A stretch of 42,326 nt of DNA from an uncultured Nitrospira sp. (GTDB lineage Bacteria; Nitrospirota; Nitrospiria; Nitrospirales; Nitrospiraceae): positions 1 to 42,326 of the forward strand of contig CAYZKG010000004.1 of NCBI GenBank assembly GCA_964478915.1, written 5' to 3'. This document shows, in pieces, positions 675 through 24,312 of the stretch. The first letter of the stretch is position 1. Every line of letters starts with the position of its first letter. The position numbers and the translations under genes were made by a program. A model generated the notes under the pieces. It searched no databases, was not told the origin of the DNA, and saw only the letters and a list, made by a program, of their open reading frames with translations.

Positions 675-2528
675 TCAAATGGAGTATTGGAACGTCGGCT
701 TACTGCCGATCGCCCTCGCCAGCACACCTCGACGCTTCAACTCCTCAAGGATCCGGCGAGCCGCTTCGTCGAAATCCTTCGGACCGGCGAACGCGAGGTC
801 CGTGTTCGAGGGAAGCGGCTCCTCGGCCTTGCTCATGTGCACCGCAATGAGCGGGGCGGGGTGAACCAATGTCCGGATGGCCTGATGGTCGGCCAGGCCG
901 AGGGCGTTGGTGGTGGACACCACGATCATGCCCGTATCGATCAGCAGACGAGCGACTTCCCCGAACCGCCGCACTATCTCGGCCGCGTCCGGCTCCGCGA
1001 GGTCGGCATCCAGTCCCCGTCTGAGGTTTTCGCCATCCAGCAGATACGCGTGGCGACCTTCGGCGACGAGCAGCGCCTCCAGCTTTCTGGCCAAAAATGA
1101 TTTGCCGGTATGGGCTGCCCCGGTAAACAGCACCATCGCGGCGCGGTGGCCGTATTGCTGCGCCCGATCCTCTAACTGCACCTCTCCCTTGACCCAGGCG
1201 AAGTCCCGCCGCCGCGCCTCGTTCCTGAGAATTTCCAGCTCGTCGTGCACGAGTTCGGTGACCACCCCGCCGCCGGCGATGTCGTAGTCGTCCACCACGA
1301 CGAATCGCCCCGTCACGGGGGAGGCGTCGTACAAGTCGAAGGCAATCGGCGATTTCGTGCGAAACGTGACTTCCGCCACCTCATTGCGCCCCACCGTGTG
1401 GCGATTGGGTCGTTCCTCCAGCTCCGCGGCATCCACGGTCCGGTGGAGGATGGCCACTTCGCACTCCACCTCTCGCGTGGCGAGCCGGAGCAGATACTTG
1501 CGGCCTCGCTCCAGAGGGCGCCGTCCCAACCAGAAGAGATTGGCCTTGAACGCCGTGGACACCAGCGGGAGGGCATCCTCATGGGAGGCGATCTCTCCGC
1601 GCTCGATGAAGATCTGCTCGTCCAGGGTGATCCCGATGGACTGGCCGGCCTGGGCCTCCGTCGGCGTCGGCTCCATGTTGAACGCCTCGATCGTCTTGAT
1701 GTTGACGGTCTTGTTCGACGGCGAAAACACGAGCTTGTCGCCCACTCTCAGCCGGCCGGCCGAGAGCCGCCCGGCCACGATCCGGCGGGCGTCGAACTTG
1801 TACACGTCCTGGACCGGGAACCGAAGAGCTTCCTCTGCTCCTCCGACCGCCCGCTTGAAGCATCCCAGCGTGTCCAGCACCGTGGGGCCGCGGTACCACG
1901 GCATCGAGTCGCTGAGCCGGACGATGTTGTCGCCCTCTTTGGCGCTGACCGGGATCACTCGCTCCGGGTTCACTTTCAGCCGTCCCAGGAAGTCGCGGTA
2001 TTCCCGTTCGATGGCGTCGAAGACCTCCTGGCGGTAGCCCACGAGGTCCATCTTGTTCACCACCACCGCCACCTGCTTGACCCCGAGCAGGGACAAGAGG
2101 TAGCCGTGCTTCTTGGACTGTTCCCTGACGCCTTCCAGGGCGTCGATCACCAGCAGGGCCGCGTCGGCGCGGGCGGCCCCGGAGATCATGTTCTTGAGAA
2201 ATTCCTTGTGGCCCGGCGCATCGATGATGATGTACTGACGGTTGTTCCAGGAGAAAAAGGTCCGGGCGGTGTCGATCGTGATGCCTTGCTCCTGTTCTTC
2301 CAGGAAGGCATCGAACAAGAACGCGTATTCGAACTGTTTTCCCTGCTGGCGGCAGATGGCCTGAACTCGCTCGAGCTTCCCGCTGGCCAACGAGCCTGTA
2401 TCGGCGTACAGCCGCCCGAGCAGGGTCGACTTGCCGTGATCCACGTGCCCGACCAGCACAATATTGAGATGGTCCTTCGGCTGCGTGGGATGAATGGATC
2501 TGAGCAGGGGAGTCGGCACGGTCGGCAT
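675..2528 (-). CDS. cysN: Sulfate adenylyltransferase subunit 1 (CysN GTPase) fused to a degenerate APS-kinase-like C-terminal domain
   Basis: 617-aa ORF. GTPase motifs [14 protein letters not shown] and NKMD are present and the EF-Tu-like domains II/III follow. The C-terminal ~165 aa resemble CysC ([33 protein letters not shown]) but lack several canonical motifs. It starts 3 nt after the cysD stop. Confidence 0.9.
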
Positions 2529-2531
2529 GGA

Positions 2532-3329
2532 CTACATGTACCCGTCTTTGCGGAGCAGCTCCATTCCGCGTCCTTCGTCCTGCGCGCGCCCTGCCCGCTC
2601 GGCGACGGTGGTTTGCCGCAGCTCCTCGATGATATCGTCCACGGTCTTTGCGGTGGACCGGATCGGGAAGGTGCACGGGGCGCATCCGAGGCTCCGGTAC
2701 CGCGTGCCGTCTCCCCGGTCCAGGTACAGATCCATGAACGGGATGCCCTCGAGCTTGATGTACTCCCAGATGTTGATCTCGGTCCAGTCCAGCAACGGAT
2801 GGATGCGAATATGCGTGCCGGCCGGGAAAGCCGTCTTGAACTGGTCCCACAGTTCAGGCGGCTGGTCCCGGAAATCCCATTCGTTGTTCTTGTCGCGGGG
2901 CGAGAAGTACCGTTCCTTCGCGCGCGTTCCTTCCTCGTCGGCCCTGACCCCGAGGATGATCCCGGTATAGCCTTTTTCATCCAGCACCTGCTTCATGGCG
3001 TTGGTCTTCAGCGCGGTGCAGCAGACGGTGCGGCCGAGGGTATGGTTCATGCCGTTGGCGAGCGCCTCCTTGTTCTGGCCGATCACCAGATTCAGCCGCC
3101 ATTCCCGGGCGAGCCGATCGCGGTATTCGATCATGGCCGGAATCTTGTAACTCGTGTCGATGTGGATCAGTGGAAACGGCACGTGGCCGAGGAAGGCCTT
3201 GCGGGCGAGCCAGAGCAGGACGGTCGAGTCCTTCCCCATGGACCACAGCATGGCGAGGTGATCGAAATGCTTGTAGGCCTCGCGAAGGATATAGATGCTC
3301 TGGTCTTCGAGCTGCCGGAGATGCTTCAT
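2532..3329 (-). CDS. cysD: Sulfate adenylyltransferase subunit 2 (CysD)
   Basis: Translation reads [22 protein letters not shown]...[19 protein letters not shown]...[10 protein letters not shown]...[18 protein letters not shown], with the PP-loop SxGKDS. I chose the internal ATG at comp 3327-3329, which forms an ATGA overlap with the upstream stop. The track ORF extends to 3491 through Gly/Pro-rich non-homologous sequence. Confidence 0.92.
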
Positions 3330-4375
3330 GCCGCTGAGACCCCTGATGTGATCGATGTGGCCGTGAGCTCCGACAGTTTCCGGGCGGCCGCCCCCGACTC
3401 CAACAGGCGCTGGGCCCCCGGCACCGCCGCCGAGATCGAGAGGGCCTTGCCGGCTGCATACAGGAGCATCGCGGCGTTCAAGACGACCCAATCGCGCTGG
3501 CTGCCCTGGAACTCGTTGGTGATGATGCGCCGCAGCAGCGCCGCCTCCTGGTCTGCCTGGCTCGGGGGAAACCCGGCCATGCTCTGGAAGGAGCCGGAGG
3601 TGAGCCCGACATCTTTGGGGTGCAGCGAGAGCGGCAGGAGCCGATCGTCGCGAATCTCTAGAACCTTGGTCACGGAGGAGATGGACAGCTCCGGATCTCC
3701 TTCCACCCCGCGCAGCACCAGAGCCCGTTGGCAGCCAAGTATCCTGAGCGCCTCGGTCACCTTGTCGAAATACGGCGGATGGGAGATGCCGATCACCTGG
3801 GAGGCCGCCCGGGCTGGATTGAGCATGCGGGCGACGGGGTGAAACAAGGTGCGGACGCCAAGCTCCTGTCGGAGGTCGAGGAAACGGGCGATCGGGGGGT
3901 GATACAGCGCAATGTCCAAATAGGCGAAGCCCTTGGCCGCCAGATCCTCGGCCACGCGTCTTGGCTCTCGATCGACCGGAACGCCGAGGGTGGCCAACAC
4001 GGCGGAGATTCCTGCTCGTGCCGGTGCCGCCTCGTAGCCGTGCATCAGGATGAACGCGCCGCCCGCTGCTGCGACGATGGCCGCGGCGACAGCGGCATGG
4101 AATGTCTCCTGCTTTCCGGCATACGCGGGCAGATCCACCAGTGCGGGCGACGGCGCAGCCGGCACGGGCGCCACGTACTCCCGAGCCGTTGCGGTGAACG
4201 CCGCCAGCTCGCTGACCGATTCCATCTTGATTCGCATGGCCATCAGGAACCCACCCACCTGCACGGGCGTCGCTTGCCCTTCGATCAAGAGGCGCATGGC
4301 CTGCTTCGCCTCTTCCCAGGTCAGGTCCTTGGAGGCTTTCGGCCCTTTGCCGATCTTGGCAATGAACCTCTGCAT
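3326..4375 (-). CDS. TrpD2/YbiB-like protein (glycosyltransferase family 3 fold, anthranilate-PRTase paralogue without the PRPP motifs)
   Basis: It is collinear with TrpD throughout ([15 protein letters not shown].., [42 protein letters not shown]). However, GTGGDG is replaced by AYAGKQ and KHGNRxxSS by MHGYEAAPA. The N-terminus [14 protein letters not shown] resembles YbiB as I remember it. Start taken at ATG comp 4373-4375 (MQRFIAKIG), preceded by GAGGAGGAA. The track start at 4393 is a GTG inside the heptad repeat. Confidence 0.7.
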
Positions 4376-4380
4376 TTCCT

Positions 4381-4415
4381 CCTCACCCCTCACGCCTTAC
4401 GCCTCACGCCTTACG
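4381..4415. repeat. One-armed heptanucleotide array, (CGTRAGG)5 in mRNA sense, between the dsrE-like and trpD2-like genes
   Basis: Plus strand: CCTCACC CCTCACG CCTTACG CCTCACG CCTTACG. On the transcribed minus strand this reads CGTAAGG CGTGAGG CGTAAGG CGTGAGG GGTGAGG and runs directly into GAGGAAATG. Confidence 0.8.
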
Positions 4416-4420
4416 ATGAA

Positions 4421-4834
4421 TCAGAACGTCAGCACGTGGTCGGCTTGCGCGACTTCTTCCTTCCAGAACGCTTCGGCCGCTTGGACTTCGTCCAGTTCGG
4501 GAATCAGATGCTCCACCTGCAGCTCGAAATACTCCATCGAGCTCCGGCAGATGGAGAATTTGGCGTCGCCCTTCTCCTTGATCTCTCGCAGGATTGCCGC
4601 CAGGTCGTTCTGTTTACGTTCGCGCAGCATCTCGCGGACCTTCGACTCGCGGCCACGGTACGCCTCAGAAAACGTCAGCTCCTTGATCTTGTCGACGGTC
4701 AGCTTGGCGGCCGCTTCGTCACAGAACAGGATGCTAACCTGGACGCCGGATGCGACGGCAATCCTGGCCAGTTCGCAGGCTTGCAGCAGGTTGTTGTAGG
4801 CACCTCGGGTCACGATCATCGCCAGCTTCTTCAC
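4421..4834 (-). CDS. DsrE/DsrF-like (COG2210-type) small sulfur-relay family protein
   Basis: 137 aa. MKKLAMIVTRGAYNNLLQACELARIAVASGVQVSILF.. fits the typical DsrE-fold N-terminus. A Cys lies in the ..KFSICRSSMEYF.. context. GTG start at comp 4832-4834, with GGGAG 7 nt upstream. Confidence 0.6.
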   Translation of the reverse strand: MKKLAMIVTRGAYNNLLQACELARIAVASGVQVSILFCDEAAAKLTVDKIKELTFSEAYRGRESKVREMLRERKQNDLAAILREIKEKGDAKFSICRSSMEYFELQVEHLIPELDEVQAAEAFWKEEVAQADHVLTF

Positions 4835-4850: not shown

Positions 4851-4914
4851 GTGATAGTGATGCGTCATGCCTAACAGGTATCTGTGATGAACTCATCACG
4901 CATCACGCTTCACG
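4851..4914. repeat. Heptanucleotide-periodic imperfect hairpin between cysH and the dsrE-like gene; it overlaps the cysH stop
   Basis: GTGATAG TGATGCG TCATG ... CTCATCA CGCATCA CGCTTCA CG. 4857-4869 (GTGATGCGTCATG) pairs with 4894-4906 (CATCACGCATCAC) at 12 of 13 positions. The sense-strand unit is CGTGATG. Confidence 0.7.
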
Positions 4915-5638
4915 TCTTATTGTGGAGGCCGCACTCGGTCTTGGCGAAGTTCTTCCACCGGCCCGACCGAGCGTCTTCGCCCGGGAACACCGGTGCAGTG
5001 CAGTGAGTGCAACCGATGCTGGGGTACTGCTGGTCATGCAGGGGGTTGTATGGGACATCGTTGGCCCTGATATAGGTCCAGACGTCCGCCGTCTTCCAGG
5101 CGGCCAGTGGATTCACCTTGACCAACCGGAACTTCGTATCCCATTCGATCACGCGCGCGTGGGCCCGTGTCGGGGCCTGCTCCCTCCGGATACCGGTGAT
5201 CCAGGCCGAATAGCCGCTCAGGACGCGCGTCAGCGGTTCCACTTTGCGCAACTGGCAGCAGCGATCGGGGTCACGCAGCCACAGCGCTTCCCCGTATTGC
5301 GCTGCCTGCTGTTCCGGGGTGAGTTGGGATTTCACCTGGATGACCTGCGAGGGCTGGAGGCCGTACTTGGCCACGATCCGGTCCCGGACGCCGTAGGTTT
5401 CAGGAAAGAGAAAGTCAGTGTCCAGATAAAACAACGGCGTCCGCGGATTGATCCGGTGGATCATATCCACGAGCACCACATCTTCCGCGCCGAAGCTGCA
5501 CGCCAGCACGATCCCCGGGAAATACCGCTTCAGGGCGTACCGCAACACCGCCTCCGGCGGTTGCGTGTCAAACGCGTCGCCGACCGCCTTCAGCTCTTCC
5601 TCCAACGGCTGGCTCTGTGCCTTAACGTCTTCGGTCAC
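4910..5638 (-). CDS. cysH: Adenylylsulfate (APS) reductase, thioredoxin-dependent Fe-S type of the CysH family
   Basis: 242 aa. The C-terminal ECGLH motif (KTECGLHNKT) is present. So are the CC...CxxC cluster cysteines (DRCCQLRK, SIGCTHCT), which distinguish APS reductases from PAPS reductases. Confidence 0.9.
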   Translation of the reverse strand: MTEDVKAQSQPLEEELKAVGDAFDTQPPEAVLRYALKRYFPGIVLACSFGAEDVVLVDMIHRINPRTPLFYLDTDFLFPETYGVRDRIVAKYGLQPSQVIQVKSQLTPEQQAAQYGEALWLRDPDRCCQLRKVEPLTRVLSGYSAWITGIRREQAPTRAHARVIEWDTKFRLVKVNPLAAWKTADVWTYIRANDVPYNPLHDQQYPSIGCTHCTAPVFPGEDARSGRWKNFAKTECGLHNKT

Positions 5639-5667: not shown

Positions 5668-8202
5668 TTATCCCTCGACTTTTTCAACCAGTAGCTTATA
5701 GTGCGCCGCCTCCGGTTCCAGCGGCTCCTCCGCCAGGATCTTGTGGCCGTCATTCCGCAGGCTCATCGGGACGTTCTTGATCGGCTCGCCCGCATCGAGC
5801 CATACCTCGAGGTACTGCCCCGCGTCCATCATCTCCAGCTTGAGCTTCGTTTTGACGTAGTTCAGCGGACACATCACGCCGCGGAGGTCGAGCACCGGCG
5901 TGTCGGTAGGTTCAGCGGCGCGCGGGGTGGTTAAACCGGCGCGCGGCTGATCGCTTGGTGTCCCGCGCTCTGCGCCCTCGGCCGCGGCGAGCTTGAGGTC
6001 CTTGCCCATCTGCTCGGTCGCGGCCTTGCAGGCCTCCACGAACCCCCGTGCGAAGTCGATCTTGCCGCCTGCAAACTCCGGGGTGGTCTCTTTGGGACCC
6101 AGGTCCCCGATCTGGGCGCCGAGATTCCGGTACGAACCCGGCACAACGCCGGTCTCCGTCAGTCGCCGCTCGAATTCCAAAAAGGTCTCTGCATCGGTGG
6201 CGGGGTCAATCCCTTCGGTCACCAGCAACGCTTTCGCCCCGGCCAGCACCGCCCGGTAGGCTTTGTTCACCGCCACGGAGTATTGGTGCTTGTCGGCCAG
6301 CAGCCGGGCCTGGTACAGCTCCTGCTCGGCCTCAAGGATGCGGTTGTCGATCATCTCCAAGGCGCCGCCGGCGCATTCACCGGGACCCAGATCCTCGGTC
6401 ACGAATTCTTCATCGCCTTCCCAGTCGTAATAGTAGCTCGGGTCCTGCTCGAAGCCGGGCACGATCGTGAACGGGATCAGTTCCTCTTTGAGCTTGGCCT
6501 TTCCGGCTCGCGCAATGAAGGCCGGGAGGCTCTCCCCTTCGCATCGGTCCCGCCGGTACACGGCCAGGAGGTGGGAGACGGCCGCCGGCACATTTCTCGC
6601 CGGGAGCTTGACGGTCATCTGGCCGATTTTGGCCGTGCCGTTTACCTGTCCGCCGAGGTGCAGCTCGTAGAACGGTGCGACATGGTCGCCGATGCGCTTT
6701 CCCACCCCATGCAGGCCGATCGTGGCGATATGGTGCTGTGCGCAGGAATTGTGGCAGCCGCTGATTTTGACGCTCACCCCTTTGAGATCGGCAGGGGTTC
6801 GGCCCGGCGGAAATATTTCGGCCATGGCCCGCGCCAATCCCTTGGAGGAGGTGATCCCGAGTCCGCAGGTGTCGGTCCCGGGACAGGCCGTGATGTCTTC
6901 GACGAACTCTGCCCCCGGATCGGCCAGACCGTGTTCGGCCAGCGCGGCGTACAGCGCTTCCACCAGGGACTCCGGGACCCACCGGATAATCAGGTTTTGG
7001 TTGATCGTCGTCCGGACGTTGCCGTTGGCATAGGCCTCGGCCAGATCGGCGACCACGTACATCTGCTCGGTGGTGATATCCCCCATGGGGAGCTTGATCA
7101 CCACGGCCACGTATCCGGATTGCTTCTGCGGAACCACGTTCGTGCGGCGCCACATCCCGTAGGCGGAAGCCGACAGGTCTGGCTCACTCTCGAAGTCGTG
7201 ATGCCCGTTGCCCCCATCGCCGTGTTGCCCATTGCCGAGCGCCGAGCCGCCGTTGCCGTGGGCGGTGCGACCGGTCGGCATGACCAGGGGGACCGGCGAG
7301 TCGTCGTGCTGCAGGAGCCTGATCAGCCCCCGGCCCGCGCGGGCATGGCCCATGCTCGCGTAGGCGTCTTCCCAGAGCTGCTTGAATTTCTCAAAGCCGA
7401 CCTTCTCAATGATGAACTTCATCCGGGCCTTGTTGCGGTTCTTCCGGTTCCCGAAGGTGTCGAACACCTTGAGGATCGCTTCGATCGTCGGAATCAGATC
7501 ATCCATCGGCACGAATTCACGCAGGATGTGCCCGATGCGGGGGGCGGAGCCGAGCCCGCCGCCGACCGACATCCGGAAGCCGATGGTGCCGTCCTCCCGC
7601 CGTGCCGCCAAGAGCCCGATGTCGTGAATCGGGGTCAGCGCGCAGTCGTGCCGGCAGCCCGAGAAAGCGATTTTGAACTTTCTGGGCAGACTTTGATTCA
7701 GCGGGTTCCGTAACAGATGGAGCGCCACGGTCTTGGCATAAGGCGTGACATCAAAGACTTCGCCGGGGCAGATGCCGGCAAGGTGGCACGCCGTGACGTT
7801 CCGGACCGTGTTGGCGCAGGCTTCTCTCGTGGTGAGCCCCACTTCGGCCAGGCCGCGCATGACGGTTCCCACGTCCTTCAGTTGCACGAAATGAAGCTGG
7901 ATATCCTGTCGCGTGGTGACATGGCCGATCCCGGTCGCATAGGTATCGGCCGATTCGCCGATGCGCCGCAATTGATTGGCGGTGAGGCCGCCGAATGGAA
8001 TCTTGATGCGGACCATCTGGACGCCGGGCTGGCGCTGCCCGTAGATCCCGTGCTGTAGGCGAAAGGGCTTGAAGATGTCGCTCGGGATTTCTCCGGCTTC
8101 CAACCGCTGAACTTCCCCTTCGAAGGCTTCGATCTCCTCGAGAATCTCGGGCGGGATCGGAGACGTTTTGATCTCGAAGGTCTTGGTATAGGGATTCGCC
8201 AT
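5668..8202 (-). CDS. sir: Ferredoxin-type assimilatory sulfite reductase hemoprotein fused to a helical domain and a C-terminal TusA/SirA-like domain
   Basis: 844 aa. It has two nitrite/sulfite-reductase repeats. The siroheme/4Fe-4S cysteines are CPGTDTC (C440, C446) and SGCHNSC (C483, C487). A Gly/His/Asn-rich linker spans aa 314-335. A helical region spans aa ~612-735. The last ~77 aa, VLDLRGVMCPLNYVKTKLKLEMM..YLEVWLD..., match the TusA pattern (Cys778). Confidence 0.85.
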   Translation of the reverse strand: MANPYTKTFEIKTSPIPPEILEEIEAFEGEVQRLEAGEIPSDIFKPFRLQHGIYGQRQPGVQMVRIKIPFGGLTANQLRRIGESADTYATGIGHVTTRQDIQLHFVQLKDVGTVMRGLAEVGLTTREACANTVRNVTACHLAGICPGEVFDVTPYAKTVALHLLRNPLNQSLPRKFKIAFSGCRHDCALTPIHDIGLLAARREDGTIGFRMSVGGGLGSAPRIGHILREFVPMDDLIPTIEAILKVFDTFGNRKNRNKARMKFIIEKVGFEKFKQLWEDAYASMGHARAGRGLIRLLQHDDSPVPLVMPTGRTAHGNGGSALGNGQHGDGGNGHHDFESEPDLSASAYGMWRRTNVVPQKQSGYVAVVIKLPMGDITTEQMYVVADLAEAYANGNVRTTINQNLIIRWVPESLVEALYAALAEHGLADPGAEFVEDITACPGTDTCGLGITSSKGLARAMAEIFPPGRTPADLKGVSVKISGCHNSCAQHHIATIGLHGVGKRIGDHVAPFYELHLGGQVNGTAKIGQMTVKLPARNVPAAVSHLLAVYRRDRCEGESLPAFIARAGKAKLKEELIPFTIVPGFEQDPSYYYDWEGDEEFVTEDLGPGECAGGALEMIDNRILEAEQELYQARLLADKHQYSVAVNKAYRAVLAGAKALLVTEGIDPATDAETFLEFERRLTETGVVPGSYRNLGAQIGDLGPKETTPEFAGGKIDFARGFVEACKAATEQMGKDLKLAAAEGAERGTPSDQPRAGLTTPRAAEPTDTPVLDLRGVMCPLNYVKTKLKLEMMDAGQYLEVWLDAGEPIKNVPMSLRNDGHKILAEEPLEPEAAHYKLLVEKVEG

Positions 8203-8223: not shown

Positions 8224-8682
8224 TTAGATGTGATACATGGGGCTTCGCTGCTGCTGCAGGGTTTGATGCCGGTCGGACAGCTCCTTCAGCGTGATGCCGC
8301 TGAGCACCGCAAGCTCGGCCTGCCGCACGCGCTCCCAGACTTGAGTGAGCAGGGATTCCGGAACCGACAGCCGGCGGCCGTTTCCCTCACCGGCGTATGG
8401 CCCCCTGGCTGACGAATGGAGCAGCGGACCGTCCAGCGCTTCCACGATCTCGGCGAGCGAGATCGTTGAGGGGGACTTCCTCAACAGGTAGCCGCCCTTC
8501 GCTCCGCGGAGGCTCTCCACGAGTCCGGCCTTCTTCATTGAGGCAAGAACCTGCTCGAGAAATCTGAGCGGAATAGCCTGTCGCCGGGCAATCGCTCTGG
8601 CCTGGACAGGCGCCTCTCCGTTCTGGAGGGCCAGGTCCAAGGCTGCGAGAATCCCATAGGCTGACTTAACAGATAGGCGCAT
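8224..8682 (-). CDS. Rrf2-family transcriptional regulator lacking cysteines (CymR-like rather than IscR/NsrR-like)
   Basis: 152 aa. MRLSVKSAYGILAALDLAL...IPLRFLEQVLASMKKAGLVESLRGAKGGYLL is the Rrf2 winged helix. The protein contains no Cys at all. It is the first gene of the cys operon. Confidence 0.85.
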   Translation of the reverse strand: MRLSVKSAYGILAALDLALQNGEAPVQARAIARRQAIPLRFLEQVLASMKKAGLVESLRGAKGGYLLRKSPSTISLAEIVEALDGPLLHSSARGPYAGEGNGRRLSVPESLLTQVWERVRQAELAVLSGITLKELSDRHQTLQQQRSPMYHI

Positions 8683-20103: not shown

Positions 20104-23100
20104 TTGGCTCACCAGAGGGCTCCCGTGCGACGATCGAAATCGCATCCTCGTGCGCCCTACGCCTGGCTGCAACTCCTCATCATCGTGATGACGCTGGTGG
20201 CCCTCGGAACGGGCGCCGTGGCGCTTCACTACGTCGAAACTCACCTCGTGGCCAGGACAGGCGAGACACTCGCGCTCGCTGCCGCCCAGGTCGCCGACAA
20301 GCTGGATCAATACTTGAACGACCGGTACGGCGATGTTCTGGTCGCCGCCAGCTCGCCGGCCCTTCAAGGCCGGGACCCATCCGCCATGGCTCTGTACCTC
20401 AGGGTGATGAAGGAGGCTCATCCGGCCTACCTGTGGGTGGGGGTGACCGACGCGCGCGGAAGGATCGTGGCGGCAACCGACAGGGCCAGCGTGGGGCAGG
20501 ACCGGCGGCAGGGCCGGTGGTTTCAGGCGGTTCGCGAGAGCCGGCAGGGCAGGATTGACGACCCGGAGCCCTGGAAGGAGGCGGGCGGGATACCGGTTGT
20601 CGGCTTTACCGCGCCGATTCTGGACCGGCGAGGAAGCTTGGCGGGGCTGATCAGCGCACGCGCCGGTCTTCCGGCCATCGAAGAGATTCTGACCGGCAGT
20701 ATCCGAACGTTCCAGGCGCAACGGGGCTTCCCCGGGAAGGTGGAGTACCAGTTCCTCACGCGCAACGGCGAGGCCTTTATCGATTCGGTTCTCGACCAGA
20801 AGGGCGCTGTGAACCTCAAGCGCCTCGGATTGCCTTCCGCGATCCTCAGCGAGTCCGGGGGGCCCGGGTATGTCGAAGAGCAGCACCTCCGCCGGCATGT
20901 CCCCGTGATCACGGGGTACAGTCAAACCAGGGGATCCGGCCGGTATCCTGAGCTGGCTTGGACCGTCCTGCTGCGCGTCGATCGAAGCGACGTCCTGATT
21001 CCTATCCGGAGCGTGCTGGTGAAGCTCGGGCTGGCGGGAGGCCTGGCGTTCATCCCGATGCTGGGATTGCTGCTCTGGAGCACCGGTAAGCTGCGGATGG
21101 CATGGCTCAAGACCCAAGAGAGCGAGCGGAAATTCGCCCAGCTCGTCCATGACTCCCCCGACGCCCTCGTTTCCTTGGATCTGCGCGGCAACATCCAGCT
21201 GTTCAACCCGGCGGCCGAGCGCTATTCCGGCTATACCGCCGAGGAAGTACTCGGCAAGCACTTTGCCAGCGTGGGCCTCTTGAGTCCGGACTCCCGGAGC
21301 AAGGCGCTCCAGGAGTTCGAGCGTGTGGTCACCGGAGAAGCGCGGCCACCCTTCGAACTGCAGATCGTGTGCAAGGACGAAAGCCGGCTCATCGGAGAAG
21401 CCCACCCCAGTCGCCTCAAGCAAGACGGTGATGTCATCGGCTTGCAGGTGGTGATCCGCGACATCACCGAGCGGAAACTGGCGGAGGACAGGCTCAGACA
21501 GAGCGAAGAGCGATTCCGGTTCATGGCCGACCACGCGCCGGTGCTGATCTGGATGACCGGCCCGAATGGCCAATGCATGTTCGTGAACAAGCCCTGGCTC
21601 GATTTCACGGGGCGCACGCTGCAGGAGGAGCGCGGGAGGGGCTGGACCGAGAGGATGCATCCTCAAGACTCCGTGGTGTGCTTCGGGATGTACCAGTCCG
21701 CGCTCCAGGCCAGGCGGCCCTTTACGATGGAGTATCGGTTGCGGCGAGCCGACGGGGAGTATCGATGGATGTTACACACGGGTGTTCCCTTGTTCACGTC
21801 GGGCGGGTGGTTCACCGGCTATATCGGCTCCTGCGTTGATGTCACGGACCGCAGACGCGCGGAGCAGGAGATCAGGGAGGCCCAAACCTTCCTGCAGTCC
21901 ATCGTCGAGAACATCCCGGACATGATCTTCGTGAAGGATGCCGCAGAGCTCAAATTCGTGCGCTTCAACAAAGCCGGGGAGGAGTTGCTGGGCTACTCCC
22001 GACAAGAGCTGATCGGCAAGTCCGACTATGACTTTTTCCCCAGGGAGCAGGCCGACTTCTTCGTGTCCAAGGACCGGGAAGTGCTACAGGGTGAAGGAGT
22101 CCTGGACATCCCGGAGGAGCCCATTCAGACCCGGTACAAGGGCGAACGGTTGTTGCACACGAAGAAGATCCCGATCCTGGACGACAAGGGGGACCCTGCG
22201 TTCTTACTGGGTATCGCCGAAGACATTACCGACCGGAAGCAAACAGAAGAGAAATTTCGAGGGATCTTCGACGCCTCTGGGGACGGGATCGGGTACGCCA
22301 CGTTGGACGGCGTGCTGCTCGATGTGAACGAGGCCTTCTGCCGGCTCACCGGCTATTCCAGACAGGAGCTGCTGGACGGGCGAAGCTACCAGGCCATCAC
22401 AGCCCCCGAGTATCACGAGCTCGAAGCGCGCCGCGTCCAGGAACTCCTCAGAACCAGATCGCCTGTTGTCTATGAGAAGGAGTACATCCGAAAGGACGGC
22501 AGTCGCGTGCCGGTCGCGCTGACGGTCTTCGTCGTGAAGGGAACGCGAGGGAAGCCGGACGCCTTGGCGGCTGTCGTGAAGGATGTGACCGAGCGCAAGC
22601 GCGCGGAAGAGACACTCCGGCAAAGCGAGGAGCGGTTCCGGCAGCTTGCCGAGAATGTTGAAGACGTCTTCTGGATTACGTCGCCGGATTTTCAAGAGGT
22701 TCTCTACGTCAGCCCGGCTTATGAAAAGGTCTGGGGCCGCCCCTGCCAGAGCCTCTATCAATCGGCGTTGGCCTGGGCGGAGGCCATCCATCCTGAAGAT
22801 CGGCCCAGAGTGCTCGCGGCCCTCGACAAGAGCGTCGCGCAAGCAGCGGTTTTCGAGGAAGAGTACCGTATCGTGCTCCCTGACGGCTCGATGCGCTGGA
22901 TCAGCGATCGTGGCTCGCCCGTACGCGACGAGCGTGAAGTCGTCAGGCGTTTCGTCGGTGTCGCTCGCGACATCACCGAACGAAAGCGGTTTCAGGAGCG
23001 CATGCAGCACATGGCCACCCATGATGAATTGACCGGCTTGCCGAACCGCCGGCTGTTCGTGGATCGCCTGGAGCGCGCGCTGGCGCAGGCCCGGCGCCGG

Positions 23101-24312
23101 CAGCAAAAACTGGTTGTGCTGCTTCTGGACCTGGACCGGTTCAAATACGTGAACGATACGTTCGGCCACGCGATGGGGGATCTCCTGCTGCACGGCCTGG
23201 CCGACCGGCTGAAAGAGTGCATTCGGGAAAGCGATACCGTGGCCCGGATGGGCGGCGATGAGTTTGCCGTGCTGTTGCCGGAGATCGCCCACGAGGAGGA
23301 CGCCGCCAAGATCGCGCAAAAAATCCTGGAGATCTTCACCGAACCCTGCGATCTCGGGGGCAACAAGGTGGTTATCACCACCAGCATCGGACTGAGCCTG
23401 TACCCGGAAGACGGCAGCGACGGAGAGATCCTGATGAAAAACGCCGACGCCGCGCTGTATCGGGCCAAAGAGCAGGGACGAAACAATTATCAATTCTGGA
23501 CTGCTGATCTGAAGCTCCGGTCAACGGAGCGGCTGGTCATGGAAAACCGCCTGCGGGTCGCCTTGGATCACGAGGAGTTCGCGCTCCATTACCAGCCTCA
23601 GGTGGACCCCCGCACCGGGCGGATCGTCGGCTTGGAAACACTGCTCCGCTGGCGCCATCCGGACAAAGGGCTGTTGCCGCCCGCGGCCTTTATCGGCTTG
23701 GCCGAAGAGACAGGCCTGATCGTGCCGATCGGCGCCTGGGTGCTCCAGACAGCTTGCGCTCAGGCGAAGGCCTGGCAAGAGCGGGGGCATCCGCCGGTGC
23801 GAATCGGGGTCAACTTGTCGCCCAAACAGTTTCGCTACCACGATCTTGTGAAGCAGATCAGCACGATTCTGACCGATACCGGCCTGGAGCCACGGTGGTT
23901 GAATCTGGAGATCACGGAAACCCTGGCCATGCACGATGTCGAGGCCACCGCCGAGACCCTCCGGGCCCTGGCCGCGCTGGGAGTCCAGATCTCGATTGAC
24001 GACTTCGGGACCGGCTATGCCTCGATGGGATACATGAAGCGCTTCCCTATCGATGTGTTGAAGATCGACCAGTCCTTCGTGAAGGAGATGACCACCGGTT
24101 CGGAGAATGCCGCGTTCGTCCCGGCAATCATCGCCATGGCCCACTCCCTGAAACTCAACGTGATCGCAGAAGGGGTCGAGTCAAACGAGCAGCTCTCCCT
24201 GCTGCAGTCGCACGATTGCGAAGGGATACAGGGGTATCTGTTCAGCCGTCCCGTGCCGGCCGAGGAATGCGAGCGGCTGCTGGCCGCGGGTAAACTCACG
24301 TCGCCTTCCTGA
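20104..24312 (+). CDS. Membrane-bound multi-PAS GGDEF/EAL signalling protein (putative c-di-GMP cyclase/phosphodiesterase)
   Basis: 1402 aa. Layout: TM helix (aa ~20-42), a ~260-aa extracytoplasmic sensor region, a second TM (aa ~300-325), about five PAS/PAC units, a GGDEF domain (RESD I-site plus GGDEF) and an EAL domain (ETLLRW, NLSPKQF, EITE, DDFGTGYAS, KIDQSFV, EGVE, QGYLFSRP). The start is TTG at 20104, or possibly GTG at 20125. Confidence 0.9.
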   Translation: MAHQRAPVRRSKSHPRAPYAWLQLLIIVMTLVALGTGAVALHYVETHLVARTGETLALAAAQVADKLDQYLNDRYGDVLVAASSPALQGRDPSAMALYLRVMKEAHPAYLWVGVTDARGRIVAATDRASVGQDRRQGRWFQAVRESRQGRIDDPEPWKEAGGIPVVGFTAPILDRRGSLAGLISARAGLPAIEEILTGSIRTFQAQRGFPGKVEYQFLTRNGEAFIDSVLDQKGAVNLKRLGLPSAILSESGGPGYVEEQHLRRHVPVITGYSQTRGSGRYPELAWTVLLRVDRSDVLIPIRSVLVKLGLAGGLAFIPMLGLLLWSTGKLRMAWLKTQESERKFAQLVHDSPDALVSLDLRGNIQLFNPAAERYSGYTAEEVLGKHFASVGLLSPDSRSKALQEFERVVTGEARPPFELQIVCKDESRLIGEAHPSRLKQDGDVIGLQVVIRDITERKLAEDRLRQSEERFRFMADHAPVLIWMTGPNGQCMFVNKPWLDFTGRTLQEERGRGWTERMHPQDSVVCFGMYQSALQARRPFTMEYRLRRADGEYRWMLHTGVPLFTSGGWFTGYIGSCVDVTDRRRAEQEIREAQTFLQSIVENIPDMIFVKDAAELKFVRFNKAGEELLGYSRQELIGKSDYDFFPREQADFFVSKDREVLQGEGVLDIPEEPIQTRYKGERLLHTKKIPILDDKGDPAFLLGIAEDITDRKQTEEKFRGIFDASGDGIGYATLDGVLLDVNEAFCRLTGYSRQELLDGRSYQAITAPEYHELEARRVQELLRTRSPVVYEKEYIRKDGSRVPVALTVFVVKGTRGKPDALAAVVKDVTERKRAEETLRQSEERFRQLAENVEDVFWITSPDFQEVLYVSPAYEKVWGRPCQSLYQSALAWAEAIHPEDRPRVLAALDKSVAQAAVFEEEYRIVLPDGSMRWISDRGSPVRDEREVVRRFVGVARDITERKRFQERMQHMATHDELTGLPNRRLFVDRLERALAQARRRQQKLVVLLLDLDRFKYVNDTFGHAMGDLLLHGLADRLKECIRESDTVARMGGDEFAVLLPEIAHEEDAAKIAQKILEIFTEPCDLGGNKVVITTSIGLSLYPEDGSDGEILMKNADAALYRAKEQGRNNYQFWTADLKLRSTERLVMENRLRVALDHEEFALHYQPQVDPRTGRIVGLETLLRWRHPDKGLLPPAAFIGLAEETGLIVPIGAWVLQTACAQAKAWQERGHPPVRIGVNLSPKQFRYHDLVKQISTILTDTGLEPRWLNLEITETLAMHDVEATAETLRALAALGVQISIDDFGTGYASMGYMKRFPIDVLKIDQSFVKEMTTGSENAAFVPAIIAMAHSLKLNVIAEGVESNEQLSLLQSHDCEGIQGYLFSRPVPAEECERLLAAGKLTSPS

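What the first reader, a model, noticed from the sequence alone, without database searches (positions are those of the whole stretch)
5668..6369. Sulfite reductase carries a ~230-aa C-terminal extension: a helical domain plus a TusA-like domain with CPLN instead of CPxP
After the second SiR repeat (cluster cysteines C440, C446, C483, C487) the ORF continues without a stop. A helical segment follows (aa ~612-735: ILEAEQELYQARLLADKHQYSVAVNKAYRAVLAGAKALLVTEGI...). Its helix spacing reminds me of HEPN-like four-helix domains, though I see no Rx4-6H motif. A Pro/Ala-rich linker comes next, then VLDLRGVMCPLNYVKTKLKLEMMDAGQYLEVWLD..., which is the TusA/SirA fold signature.

Two other details stand out. 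The first SiR half also retains a CX3C (SGCRHDC). A Gly/His/Asn-rich insertion (HGNGGSALGNGQHGDGGNGHH, aa 314-335) links the two halves.
Basis: partly seen in the sequence, partly recalled or inferred. Interest (0 to 1): 0.65.

Follow-up and report, generated by a model that had tools for sequence, protein, structure and literature searches.

The report
Sulfite reductase with built-in sulfur-carrier tail
The sulfite reductase of this Nitrospira-type sulfate-assimilation operon really does carry a conserved extra tail (one invariant cysteine, a non-catalytic HEPN-fold helical domain and a TusA sulfur-carrier domain), which probably hands newly reduced sulfur to carrier proteins instead of releasing it all as free sulfide.

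Summary
Window 5668-8202 (-) is one uninterrupted 844-aa ORF. It holds a two-repeat siroheme/[4Fe-4S] sulfite/nitrite-reductase core (aa ~1-592), then an invariant G-x-G-E-C610 loop, a HEPN-fold helical domain (aa 609-731, no conserved Rx4-6H), a disordered Pro/Ala linker (742-766) and a TusA-fold domain (768-841) with Cys778 in CPLN.

It is not an assembly fusion. More than 120 protein clusters, including a complete Nitrospira genome, share the architecture. So do diverse relatives (28-70% identity) named as Nitrospinota, Poribacteria, Omnitrophota and Gemmatimonas. CPxN and C610 are invariant family-wide. The helical domain was found only attached to this reductase.

In Nitrospirales the gene sits in Rrf2-SiR-CysH-(DsrE-like)-TrpD-like-CysD-CysNC. 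In several other lineages it is adjacent or fused to ThiS, rhodanese-less ThiF, JAB and PLP sulfhydrylases. This is the neighbourhood in which Iyer et al. (2006) predicted a free-standing SirA/TusA to act like rhodanese.

Most likely function: an assimilatory sulfite reductase with a tethered two-cysteine sulfur relay. This is inferred, not shown. I found no paper describing the fusion. Verdict: new variant of a known kind, moderately interesting.

The parts
5668..8202 (-). Whole 844-aa ORF: sulfite reductase core + Cys loop + HEPN-fold domain + linker + TusA domain
6427..8202 (-). Siroheme/[4Fe-4S] sulfite/nitrite-reductase core (aa 1-592; two NIR_SIR_ferr + NIR_SIR repeats). Closest solved structures are M. 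tuberculosis NirA/SirA 1zj8 and the plant nitrite and sulfite reductases.
7642..7788 (-). First-half Cx5C...Cx3C set (C139, C145, C183, C187). These align with the cluster-ligand cysteines of the second half of tobacco nitrite reductase, so this is a possible second [4Fe-4S] site.
7198..7260 (-). Gly/His/Asn-rich low-complexity insert (aa 315-335) in the disordered linker between the two halves. Variable among homologues.
6742..6885 (-). Second-half cluster/siroheme ligand cysteines C440, C446, C483, C487 (invariant 37/37 and 120/120)
6367..6387 (-). G-P-G-E-C610-A-G loop at the N-terminal cap of HEPN helix 1. Cys610 (codon 6373-6375) is invariant in all 37 diverse family members, including those without TusA.
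6010..6378 (-). HEPN-fold helical domain (aa 609-731) without a conserved Rx4-6H motif. Every full-length hit in the 1.84-billion-protein library carries it fused to this reductase family.
5905..5979 (-). Disordered Pro/Ala-rich tether (aa 742-766, pLDDT below 50)
5680..5901 (-). TusA-fold domain (aa 768-841). Cys778 lies in CPLN (nt 5860-5871), just before helix 780-790.
8224..8682 (-). Rrf2-family regulator with no cysteine, upstream of the reductase. Conserved at this position across Nitrospirales.
4910..5638 (-). CysH, Fe-S-type APS reductase (CC...CxxC...ECGLH; TIGR02055 above its cut-off)
4421..4834 (-). DsrE-family protein (137 aa) with a conserved active-site-type Cys96. Candidate partner of the TusA domain. 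Present in only about 10 of about 60 Nitrospirales operons.
3326..4393 (-). TrpD-like (glycosyl transferase family 3) paralogue conserved inside the operon. Role unknown.
2532..3491 (-). CysD (sulfate adenylyltransferase small subunit)
675..2528 (-). CysN fused to an APS-kinase-like domain

Best explanation
This is the cell's assimilatory, ferredoxin-type siroheme sulfite reductase, equipped with a covalently tethered sulfur relay.

The core reduces sulfite made by CysDN and CysH. Two invariant helix-N-cap cysteines then handle the reduced sulfur. Cys610 sits on a flexible loop directly after the core. Cys778 sits on a TusA domain that hangs on a disordered tether of at least 25 residues (aa 742-766).

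The proposal is that these cysteines capture the reduced sulfur as a protein persulfide. This could happen by sulfide attacking a C610-C778 disulfide, or by capture of a partly reduced siroheme-bound intermediate as DsrC does. The TusA domain then carries the sulfur to acceptor proteins.

In lineages where the gene sits with ThiS, rhodanese-less ThiF, JAB and PLP sulfhydrylases, the acceptor would be the adenylated C-terminus of a ThiS/CysO/HcyS-type carrier. That gives the thiocarboxylate used for cysteine or homocysteine synthesis. In this Nitrospira-type operon the acceptor is unknown. The co-encoded DsrE-like protein is one candidate, and carriers encoded elsewhere in the genome are another.

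The HEPN-fold domain is a non-catalytic scaffold that presents Cys610. The architecture, the conservation and the gene contexts are shown. The sulfur chemistry and the direction of transfer are inferred.
For: - Single ORF and domain content.
- Core is closest to ferredoxin-type SiR/NiR, with all four cluster cysteines and the PRKFK basic motif invariant.
- The cys operon Rrf2-SiR-CysH-...-CysD-CysNC is conserved in about 60 Nitrospirales loci.
- C610 is invariant in 37/37 diverse and 120/120 close homologues. C778, P779 and N781 are invariant in all TusA-bearing members.
- Both cysteines lie at helix N-termini in the models.
- The linker is disordered, and the tail-only model has pTM 0.54. This suggests (inference, not measured) that HEPN and TusA are not fixed relative to each other.
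- The TusA fold matches the persulfide carrier E. coli TusA in its IscS complex, and YeeD.
- Every full-length hit carries the helical domain on this reductase family (232 clusters at 50% identity).
- Contexts in other lineages:
  - PALP-MetY-ThiS(...GGGR)-ThiF-[JAB-SiR-HEPN-TusA].
  - A JAB gene overlapping the start of the fusion gene.
  - ThiS-x-PALP-[fusion]-PALP-ThiS.
  - Rrf2-PALP-ThiS-MetY-ThiF-JAB-[fusion]-CysH-CysD-CysNC.
  - Poribacteria, [fusion]-PALP-ThiF(268 aa).
- Iyer, Burroughs and Aravind 2006 (PMC1779556) reported that such ThiS/JAB/E1 sulfate-assimilation neighbourhoods always have an E1 without rhodanese plus a SirA (TusA-family) protein. They predicted SirA to act like rhodanese. 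They also reported that some actinobacteria fuse ThiS to the C-terminus of sulfite reductase.
- A DsrE-family gene with the active-site cysteine sits in this operon.
Against: - No ThiS, ThiF or JAB gene lies in this 42-kb window or within 10 kb of the gene in any of about 60 Nitrospirales loci.
- In Nitrospinota, Omnitrophota and several other lineages the gene stands alone among housekeeping genes.
- Assimilatory SiRs normally release sulfide after six electrons. Persulfide formation then needs a disulfide or an early interception, and neither is shown.
- A few family members lack TusA but keep HEPN and C610. In one of them a different TusA-like domain (CPFT) is fused to CysN, at the start of the pathway. 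That does not point specifically to the product side.
- The CPxP-to-CPxN change has unknown consequences for persulfide chemistry.
- The position of the tail relative to the active site could not be measured.
Confidence: 0.5

Rival explanations
1. Substrate-side carrier or reductant. The TusA and C610 cysteines act before the reductase chemistry. Either they carry an S-sulfonate or thiosulfonate group and deliver sulfite (or thiosulfate-derived sulfite) into the active site, or they act as a thioredoxin-like dithiol that releases sulfite from the S-sulfocysteine intermediate of the adjacent APS reductase. The result would be sulfite channelled through a CysDN-CysH-SiR assembly and kept away from nitrite-rich cytoplasm.
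For: - The gene is adjacent to CysH in all Nitrospirales, and a DsrE-like gene lies between CysH and CysD in some.
- In L090 a TusA-like domain is fused to CysN, next to a TusA-less SiR-HEPN.
- The TusA domain resembles YeeD/TsuB of the thiosulfate-uptake complex.
- From my own knowledge: TusA and DsrE3 proteins can carry thiosulfonate (Liu et al. 2014), and YeeD handles thiosulfate.
- The family is prominent in the nitrite oxidizers Nitrospira and Nitrospina.
Against: - I know of no precedent for a cysteine-bound sulfonate as the substrate of an assimilatory siroheme reductase.
- The strongest recurrent contexts outside Nitrospirales are product-side genes (ThiS, ThiF, JAB, PLP sulfhydrylases).
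- The CysN-fused TusA-like domain has a different motif (CPFT), so it may not be equivalent.
Confidence: 0.2
2. Structural or regulatory appendage. The HEPN and TusA domains mediate oligomerisation, ferredoxin or partner docking, or redox or sulfur sensing that tunes activity. They carry no sulfur in the pathway.
For: - From my own knowledge, HEPN domains commonly dimerise.
- The HEPN domain has lost the catalytic motif.
- The canonical CPxP of TusA is altered.
- Many members stand alone with no partner genes nearby.
Against: - Two cysteines at helix N-caps are absolutely conserved over 28-70% identity, while the surrounding helices vary freely. This is the signature of chemistry rather than packing.
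- The repeated fusion or adjacency to JAB, ThiS and ThiF points to a pathway role.
Confidence: 0.12
3. Artefact or misjoined genes. The tail is a separate HEPN-TusA gene fused to the reductase by an assembly or sequencing error, or the HEPN part is an RNase toxin or defence module unrelated to sulfur metabolism.
For: From my own knowledge, HEPN domains are typical of toxins and defence systems. NCBI's PGAP pipeline names some homologues 'HEPN domain-containing protein'.
Against: - The same uninterrupted 825-850-aa ORF occurs in more than 120 clusters from independent assemblies, including a complete 4.46-Mb genome.
- It also occurs in distant phyla.
- GC3 is equal in tail and core, and the other frames are closed.
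- There is no conserved Rx4-6H.
- No full-length free-standing copy of the helical domain was seen. The short hits look like fragments of the fusion.
Confidence: 0.02

Closest known systems
Ferredoxin-dependent assimilatory sulfite/nitrite reductases (M. tuberculosis NirA/SirA 1zj8; plant NiR 3b0g and 2akj; maize SiR 5h8v; E. coli CysI 1aop)
   Same: The core has the same two-repeat fold, the Cx5C...Cx3C siroheme/[4Fe-4S] ligands in the second half, and basic anion-binding residues in the first half. It also sits in a sulfate-assimilation operon.
   Different: - It carries a tail of about 250 aa (Cys loop, HEPN fold, TusA) that none of the solved enzymes has.
- The first half retains a full four-cysteine set.
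- It scores below every curated NCBIfam equivalog cut-off: NirA family 293 against 523, sir 130 against 731.
Free-standing SirA/TusA (CCD1) proteins in ThiS-JAB-E1 sulfate-assimilation operons (Iyer, Burroughs, Aravind 2006, PMC1779556), and the protein-thiocarboxylate routes to Cys and Hcy (M. tuberculosis CysO/CysM/Mec; Wolinella HcyS/HcyF/HcyD/MetY/Sir, from my own knowledge)
   Same: The partner genes are the same: ThiS, rhodanese-less ThiF, JAB, PLP sulfhydrylase, CysH, CysDN and SiR. They lie next to relatives of this protein. The predicted role of the TusA-type cysteine as a rhodanese substitute also fits.
   Different: Here the TusA domain is fused to the reductase through a HEPN-fold domain with an extra invariant cysteine, and it has CPxN rather than CPxP. 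In the window's own operon the ThiS, ThiF and JAB genes are absent.
Sulfite reductase-ThiS fusions of some actinobacteria (Iyer et al. 2006)
   Same: A sulfur-carrier module is fused to the C-terminus of an assimilatory sulfite reductase, which implies direct hand-over of reduced sulfur.
   Different: The fused module there is the final carrier (ThiS, a beta-grasp protein with a C-terminal GG), not a TusA persulfide carrier. No HEPN domain is reported.
DsrAB-DsrC of dissimilatory sulfite reduction
   Same: A siroheme sulfite reductase works with a flexible two-cysteine protein arm that takes up the sulfur. This is a resemblance in proposed working principle only.
   Different: The core here is of the assimilatory monomeric type, with only a distant fold match to DsrA/DsrB (E 1e-6 to 1e-8). 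The cysteines sit on HEPN and TusA modules, not on a DsrC fold. No Dsr genes are nearby.
TusA / YedF / YeeD (TsuB) sulfur-carrier family
   Same: The fold matches (TMt about 0.8). The conserved cysteine lies just before helix 1. The domain scores above the Pfam PF01206 threshold.
   Different: The second proline of CPxP is replaced by an invariant Asn. The domain is fused rather than free-standing. It scores below the YedF equivalog cut-off (38 against 79).
HEPN superfamily (AF_0298 2hsb, ST0689, TT1696, HepT toxins)
   Same: A four- to five-helix bundle with the same topology (TMt 0.73-0.82) and a KALL-type helix 2.
   Different: No Rx4-6H RNase motif. No MNT partner was seen beside it. The domain is embedded in a metabolic enzyme and has an invariant cysteine at the start of helix 1.

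Membership tests
Siroheme/[4Fe-4S] sulfite/nitrite reductase superfamily (assimilatory, ferredoxin type) | Two NIR_SIR_ferr + NIR_SIR repeats in one chain | tested here: met
   Pfam NIR_SIR 2.9e-59 (2 stretches) and NIR_SIR_ferr 4.9e-40 (2 stretches). Fold matches 1zj8, 3b0g and 5h8v at E 1e-28 to 1e-33.
Siroheme/[4Fe-4S] sulfite/nitrite reductase superfamily (assimilatory, ferredoxin type) | Four cysteine ligands Cx5C...Cx3C in the C-terminal repeat | tested here: met
   C440, C446, C483 and C487 are invariant in 37/37 and 120/120 sequences and align to the NiR ligands.
Siroheme/[4Fe-4S] sulfite/nitrite reductase superfamily (assimilatory, ferredoxin type) | Score above a curated equivalog threshold (sir TIGR02042, CysI, NirA family) | tested here: not met
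   The best hit is NF007126 NirA family at 293 bits against a cut-off of 523. TIGR02042 scores 130 against 731. This is a distinct family with no curated model.
Siroheme/[4Fe-4S] sulfite/nitrite reductase superfamily (assimilatory, ferredoxin type) | Sulfite rather than nitrite as the physiological substrate, and ferredoxin as the electron donor | not testable with these tools
   Supported only by operon context (CysH, CysD, CysNC) and by siroheme-synthesis neighbours in one relative.
TusA (PF01206) sulfur-carrier family | Profile match above the gathering threshold, and the two-layer alpha/beta TusA fold | tested here: met
   55.2 bits against a cut-off of 28.6. Foldseek gives TMt about 0.8 and rmsd 2.1-2.9 A to 3lvj_C and 1dcj, and rmsd 1.3 A to 8k1r_B.
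TusA (PF01206) sulfur-carrier family | Conserved reactive cysteine at the N-terminus of helix 1 | tested here: met
   C778 is invariant, and helix 780-790 follows it.
TusA (PF01206) sulfur-carrier family | Cys-Pro-x-Pro motif | tested here: not met
   The motif is CPLN. Asn781 is present in 32/32 and 120/120 sequences, while solved relatives have CPVP, CPYP and CPIP.
TusA (PF01206) sulfur-carrier family | Carries persulfide or thiosulfonate sulfur on the cysteine | not testable with these tools
   Needs biochemistry.
HEPN superfamily | HEPN helical-bundle fold | tested here: met
   2hsb at TMt 0.81-0.82 and rmsd 1.8-1.9 A. Also 1wol, 1ufb, 2q00 and the HepT structures. Pfam HEPN scores 22.8 bits against a cut-off of 22, and PF05168 is precomputed for many homologues.
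HEPN superfamily | Rx4-6H RNase motif at the start of the last long helix | tested here: not met
   No conserved Arg or His at the aligned positions in 37 diverse members. The window's only regex match (R633...H639) is in the alpha1-alpha2 loop and is not conserved.
ThiS/JAB/E1/SirA sulfate-assimilation neighbourhood (Iyer et al. 2006, type 4e) | ThiS-like carrier, JAB peptidase and rhodanese-less E1 encoded beside the sulfate-assimilation genes and a SirA/TusA protein | tested here: not met
   In this window and in about 60 Nitrospirales loci there is no ThiS, ThiF or JAB gene within reach. The feature is met in relatives from other lineages.
DsrC-type sulfur acceptor of sulfite reductase | DsrC fold with two cysteines on a C-terminal arm | tested here: not met
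   The tail folds as HEPN plus TusA. No DsrC/TusE match was found in the Pfam, PDB sequence or Foldseek searches.

The most novel reading that the evidence does not exclude
An assimilatory-type siroheme sulfite reductase that does not release free sulfide. Its own two invariant cysteines (C610 on the HEPN cap and C778 on the tethered TusA domain) would intercept the sulfur as a protein persulfide or trisulfide. This would be an assimilatory counterpart of DsrAB-DsrC. The sulfur would then pass to ThiS-type carriers or DsrE proteins. The all-or-none four-cysteine set in the first half would bind a second [4Fe-4S] cluster serving this relay. If so, the major nitrite oxidizers (Nitrospira, Nitrospina) and several other phyla would assimilate sulfur through a closed protein-bound route.
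Probability: 0.25. Interest if true: 0.75.

Novelty: new variant of a known kind. Interest (0 to 1): 0.55.

Why it matters
The enzyme is the only sulfite reductase seen in the sulfate-assimilation operon of Nitrospirales. Genome papers call it simply 'Sir', while NCBI's PGAP pipeline names it 'TusA family protein' or 'HEPN domain-containing protein'.

The fusion physically ties a TusA-type carrier to the reductase. This turns an old comparative-genomics prediction (a SirA/TusA protein standing in for rhodanese in ThiS-dependent sulfur assimilation) into something directly testable with one protein. The open question it addresses is whether reduced sulfur leaves a siroheme reductase as free sulfide or as protein-bound sulfane sulfur.

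It also gives a clear example of a HEPN fold recruited as a non-nuclease scaffold in a metabolic enzyme. Finally, it shows that current annotation of this gene is misleading.

Tried and rejected
- **Assembly fusion or frameshift.** Rejected. The single ORF is conserved in more than 120 clusters and a complete genome. Codon statistics are the same in the tail and the core.
- **HEPN RNase or toxin.** Rejected. There is no conserved Rx4-6H, no MNT partner was seen, and no full-length free-standing copy of the domain was seen.
- **Distance from Cys778 or Cys610 to the siroheme pocket.** Not possible. Structure prediction returns no coordinates or predicted aligned error (PAE), and /data holds no model file.
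- **Literature on the fusion.** Searches with 'sulfite reductase' plus TusA, fusion, Nitrospira or HEPN, and with 'ferredoxin-dependent sulfite reductase' plus TusA, gave nothing specific. The Nitrospina and Nitrospinota genome papers mention only 'Sir'. The Wolinella HcyS paper could not be read.
- **ThiS, ThiF, JAB, PALP or MetY near the gene.** I looked in the window and in 80 genome loci. ThiF turned up only in the two Poribacteria loci, L074 and L080, and none of the five in Nitrospirales or the window. PALP next to L074's ThiF came from Pfam. The other positive loci came from single-protein look-ups.
- **Contexts of members from Nitrospinota, Omnitrophota and others.** These are housekeeping genes and uninformative.
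- **Alignment to M. tuberculosis NirA to test the Tyr-Cys link.** The tool printed only the tobacco NiR alignments, so the equivalence of Y54 and C129 to Tyr69 and Cys161 remains a lead.
- **Search for free-standing CPxN TusA proteins.** Not run. The listing limit of 120 best hits would be filled by the fusions themselves.


Full report
**1. What is in the sequence**

Window 5668-8202 on the minus strand is one open reading frame of 844 codons with an ATG start and no internal stop. There are also C129, C139, C145, C610 and C725.

Pfam finds two NIR_SIR and two NIR_SIR_ferr stretches. It finds a TusA domain at aa 771-841 (55.2 bits, cut-off 28.6). It also finds a borderline HEPN match at aa 622-668 (22.8 bits, cut-off 22).

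The tail is coding in this frame. GC3 is 0.806 in the tail and 0.812 in the core, and the two other forward frames of the tail hold 10 and 8 stops. The Gly/His/Asn-rich insert is aa 315-335.

**2. It is not an assembly fusion**

A homologue search returned more than 120 clusters at 73-97% identity. All but one (a truncated 772-aa entry covering 93% of the query) are 817-850 aa, and all have the same domain content. They come from many independent assemblies and from a complete 4.46-Mb genome (Candidatus Nitrospira bockiana). The sources name them 'sulfite reductase (ferredoxin)', 'sulfurtransferase TusA family protein' or 'HEPN domain-containing protein'.

In an alignment of these 120, every cysteine listed above except C554 is present in 120/120. 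The G/H/N-rich insert is variable and mostly gapped.

**3. How far the family reaches**

I searched the helical segment alone (aa 590-745) against 1.84 billion cluster representatives. It found only 232 proteins at E up to 0.001.

I then typed the hits with the query's own segments. Every full-length hit is a two-repeat reductase followed by the helical domain, and nearly all have TusA after it. Five have the helical domain but no TusA. The short hits look like fragments of the same architecture.

An alignment of 37 diverse full-length members (28-70% identity, A1) has few invariant positions. These include the four cluster cysteines, D593 and C610. C610 lies in a G-x-G-E-C-(A/G/S)-(G/A) motif and is kept even in the TusA-less members.

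In all 32 TusA-bearing members the motif is D-L-x-G-V-x-C-P-x-N-(Y/F)-V, with Cys778 and Asn781 invariant.

Of these, 593 were confirmed as relatives of the tail or of part of it. The best 80 are 62 Nitrospirales-type loci at 61-82% tail identity, followed by 18 loci at 34-42%, labelled Nitrospina/Nitrospinota (7), Nitrospirota-type (6), Poribacteria (2), Gemmatimonas (1), Nitrospirales (1) and 'uncultured bacterium' (1). Source names of other clusters add Omnitrophota and 'Deltaproteobacteria'.

**4. Structure**

The AlphaFold2 model of the whole protein, built on alignment A1, has mean pLDDT 85.1 and pTM 0.76. It has three disordered stretches: aa 1-13, 298-341 (the inter-repeat linker with the G/H/N insert) and 742-766 (the Pro/Ala linker). 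The loop around aa 600-620 has a lower pLDDT of about 62-67.

Foldseek against the PDB places the core closest to M. tuberculosis NirA/SirA (1zj8, E 2e-33), then to plant nitrite and sulfite reductases and E. coli CysI. Fsr and DsrAB are far behind.

The helical domain matches the HEPN protein AF_0298 (2hsb) with target-normalised TM-score (TMt) 0.81-0.82 and rmsd 1.8-1.9 A over 121 columns. It also matches ST0689, TT1696, SSO P95883, TM0613 and the HepT toxins.

The last domain matches E. coli TusA (3lvj_C and 1dcj, TMt about 0.8), YeeD/TsuB (8k1r_B, rmsd 1.3 A) and a SirA-like protein of Desulfitobacterium.

In both models C610 sits in the first turn of HEPN helix 1, and C778 sits two residues before the first TusA helix. 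A cysteine at a helix N-terminus is the position typical of reactive cysteines. That last point is my own knowledge.

The tail-only model has pTM 0.54 with well-folded domains. This suggests that HEPN and TusA are not fixed relative to each other. That reading is an inference.

Coordinates are not exposed, so no distances could be measured.

**5. The two motif questions**

No Rx4-6H motif is conserved at the canonical HEPN position in any part of the family. The window protein has one regex match, R633-LLADK-H639. It lies in the alpha1-alpha2 loop and is not conserved beyond close relatives. The HEPN domain is therefore most likely not a nuclease.

The solved TusA relatives that align by sequence have CPVP (TM0983), CPYP (YedF) and CPIP (YeeD) where this family has CPxN. 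The change is real and is a signature of this family. Its chemical consequence is unknown.

**6. Gene context in the window and in Nitrospirales**

The window's operon on the minus strand reads as follows:
- Rrf2 regulator, 8224-8682, with no cysteine
- the reductase
- CysH, 4910-5638, an Fe-S-type APS reductase (TIGR02055 above its cut-off)
- a DsrE-family protein, 4421-4834
- a TrpD-like protein, 3326-4393
- CysD
- CysN fused to an APS-kinase-like domain

The order Rrf2-SiR-CysH-TrpD-like-CysD-CysNC is conserved in about 60 Nitrospirales loci, although in three or four of them the TrpD-like gene follows CysNC. The DsrE-like gene is present in about ten of them. Its Cys96 is conserved and aligns with the cysteine of DsrE-type structures 2qs7 and 3pnx.

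The rest of the window is housekeeping: ThrRS, PheST, Rpe, RsmB, Fmt, a PAS-GGDEF-EAL protein, ArgDFGH, LysA and DapFAB. This context makes the enzyme the assimilatory sulfite reductase of the cell.

**7. Gene context in other lineages**

This is the most informative result. Each item below is a distinct family member.
- A member with an N-terminal JAB domain fused on (P0288) lies behind PALP, a MetY-type sulfhydrylase, a 69-aa ThiS ending in GGGR, and a 263-aa ThiF.
- P0217 has a JAB gene overlapping its start.
- P0179 is flanked by ThiS-x-PALP on one side and PALP-ThiS on the other.
- On the P0256 contig the order is Rrf2, PALP, ThiS, MetY-type, ThiF (268 aa), JAB, the fused reductase, CysH, CysD, CysNC. 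This unites the Nitrospira-type operon with the ThiS set.
- In Poribacteria the fused reductase is followed by a ThrC-like PALP enzyme and a 268-aa ThiF.
- P0251 is followed by siroheme-synthesis genes.
- A TusA-less member (P0165) is preceded by a CysN that carries a different TusA-like domain with CPFT at its C-terminus.
- In Nitrospinota, Omnitrophota and several others the gene stands alone among housekeeping genes.
- L069 has CysH and Sat beside the fused reductase. L079 has an AprA-like flavoprotein, a small two-cluster ferredoxin and Sat.

**8. Relation to what is known**

[quoted passage not shown] They noted three things. The E1 in these neighbourhoods always lacks the rhodanese domain. 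The neighbourhoods always contain a SirA (CCD1, now TusA-family) protein, which they predicted to act like rhodanese. In some actinobacteria ThiS is fused to the C-terminus of sulfite reductase.

From my own knowledge, the protein-thiocarboxylate routes to cysteine (M. tuberculosis CysO/CysM/Mec) and to homocysteine (Wolinella HcyS/HcyF/HcyD/MetY with Sir) are the characterised versions. The Wolinella paper is cited in PMC5764234 but could not be read.

The protein studied here is a fused form of that association, with two additions. One is a HEPN-fold domain found only in this context. The other is an extra invariant cysteine. It also has a changed TusA motif.

I found no paper that describes the fusion. 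The Nitrospina and Nitrospinota genome papers list only 'Sir'.

**9. Most likely mechanism (inferred)**

The core reduces sulfite with ferredoxin electrons. The reduced sulfur is caught by the pair C610 and C778 as a persulfide.

One redox-neutral cycle consistent with known rhodanese/ThiI-type chemistry runs as follows. Sulfide opens a C610-C778 disulfide, giving C778-SSH. The persulfide attacks the ThiS acyl-adenylate. C610 then resolves the acyl-disulfide, which releases ThiS-COSH and re-forms the disulfide. An alternative is interception of a partly reduced siroheme-bound intermediate, as DsrC does.

The TusA domain moves on its disordered tether between the reductase and the acceptor. In this Nitrospira-type operon the acceptor is not identified. 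The DsrE-like protein is one candidate.

I put this explanation at about 0.5. The rivals are:
- a substrate-side role, either sulfonate or sulfite delivery or a thioredoxin-like role for APS reductase (0.2);
- a purely structural or regulatory appendage (0.12);
- an artefact or toxin (0.02).

**10. Side observations**

The first repeat keeps the whole Cx5C...Cx3C set (C139, C145, C183, C187). These residues align with the cluster ligands of the second repeat of tobacco NiR. Across the family they are kept all-or-none: 18 of 37 members have all four and 13 of 37 have none. This suggests a second [4Fe-4S] site in about half of the family.

C129 aligns next to tobacco NiR Met175, a residue mutated in several of the solved Nii3 structures and, from my own knowledge, an active-site residue. 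Y54 is invariant. This may parallel the Tyr-Cys link of M. tuberculosis SirA. That is from my own knowledge and is untested.

**11. Verdict**

This is a widespread, conserved and uncharacterised variant of an assimilatory sulfite reductase with a tethered sulfur-carrier module.

It is a new variant of a known kind. Interest is moderate (0.55). It would be higher if the enzyme proves to release protein-bound sulfur rather than free sulfide.

Noticed in passing
window 7642-7788 (-), aa 139-187: The first reductase repeat keeps a complete Cx5C...Cx3C set (C139, C145, C183, C187). These align with the cluster ligands of the second repeat of tobacco NiR. Across 37 diverse members the set is all-or-none (18 have all four, 13 have none). 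This suggests a second [4Fe-4S] site in about half of the family.
   Followed up: partly
window 7816-7818 (C129) and 8041-8043 (Y54), (-): C129 (120/120 in Nitrospira, 12/37 family-wide) aligns next to tobacco NiR Met175, a residue mutated in several solved Nii3 structures. Y54 is invariant (37/37). This may be an analogue of the Tyr69-Cys161 cross-link of M. tuberculosis SirA. That equivalence is recalled from memory, and the alignment to 1zj8 could not be displayed.
   Followed up: partly
window 4421-4834 (-): A 137-aa DsrE-family protein lies between CysH and the TrpD-like gene. Its Cys96 is conserved and aligns to the cysteine of 2qs7 and 3pnx. The gene is present in only about 10 of about 60 Nitrospirales operons. 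It is a plausible TusA partner.
   Followed up: partly
window 3326-4393 (-): A TrpD-like (glycosyl transferase family 3) paralogue is conserved inside the sulfate-assimilation operon of Nitrospirales. It passes the TIGR01245 domain cut-off. By eye it lacks the canonical GTGGD and KHGN motifs, which I recall from memory. Its role in sulfur assimilation is unexplained.
   Followed up: no
window 675-2528 (-) and 4910-5638 (-): CysN is fused to an APS-kinase-like domain that matches only part of the profile. CysH is of the Fe-S APS-reductase type (CC...CxxC...ECGLH), so APS kinase should not be needed for assimilation.
   Followed up: no
window 8224-8682 (-): The Rrf2-family regulator directly upstream has no cysteine at all (I would call it CymR-like, from memory). 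It is conserved at this position across Nitrospirales and also heads the P0256 operon.
   Followed up: no
L090 4537-5994 and 6001-8085 (also L091): In a TusA-less SiR-HEPN member, the preceding CysN carries a C-terminal TusA-like domain with CPFT. TusA-type domains are therefore fused to different enzymes of the same pathway.
   Followed up: partly
L079 6078-8219 and 10762-11922; L069 9076-10281: In one Nitrospiraceae MAG the fused reductase is flanked by an AprA-like flavoprotein, a small two-[4Fe-4S] ferredoxin and Sat (ATP sulfurylase). In L069 it is flanked by CysH and Sat. The identity of the AprAB-like pair was not verified.
   Followed up: no
homologues listed: NCBI's PGAP pipeline names this sulfite reductase 'sulfurtransferase TusA family protein' or 'HEPN domain-containing protein'. 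No NCBIfam equivalog reaches its cut-off. The family is effectively misannotated.
   Followed up: yes
L080 10783-13042: In a Poribacteria chromosome, small genes (DUF2283, DUF4258, a PIN-domain protein; they look toxin-antitoxin-like to me) sit between the fused reductase and the ThiF gene.
   Followed up: no
window 20104-24312 (+): A 1402-aa signalling protein with dCache (below its Pfam cut-off), several PAS domains, GGDEF and EAL. It is unrelated to the finding.
   Followed up: no
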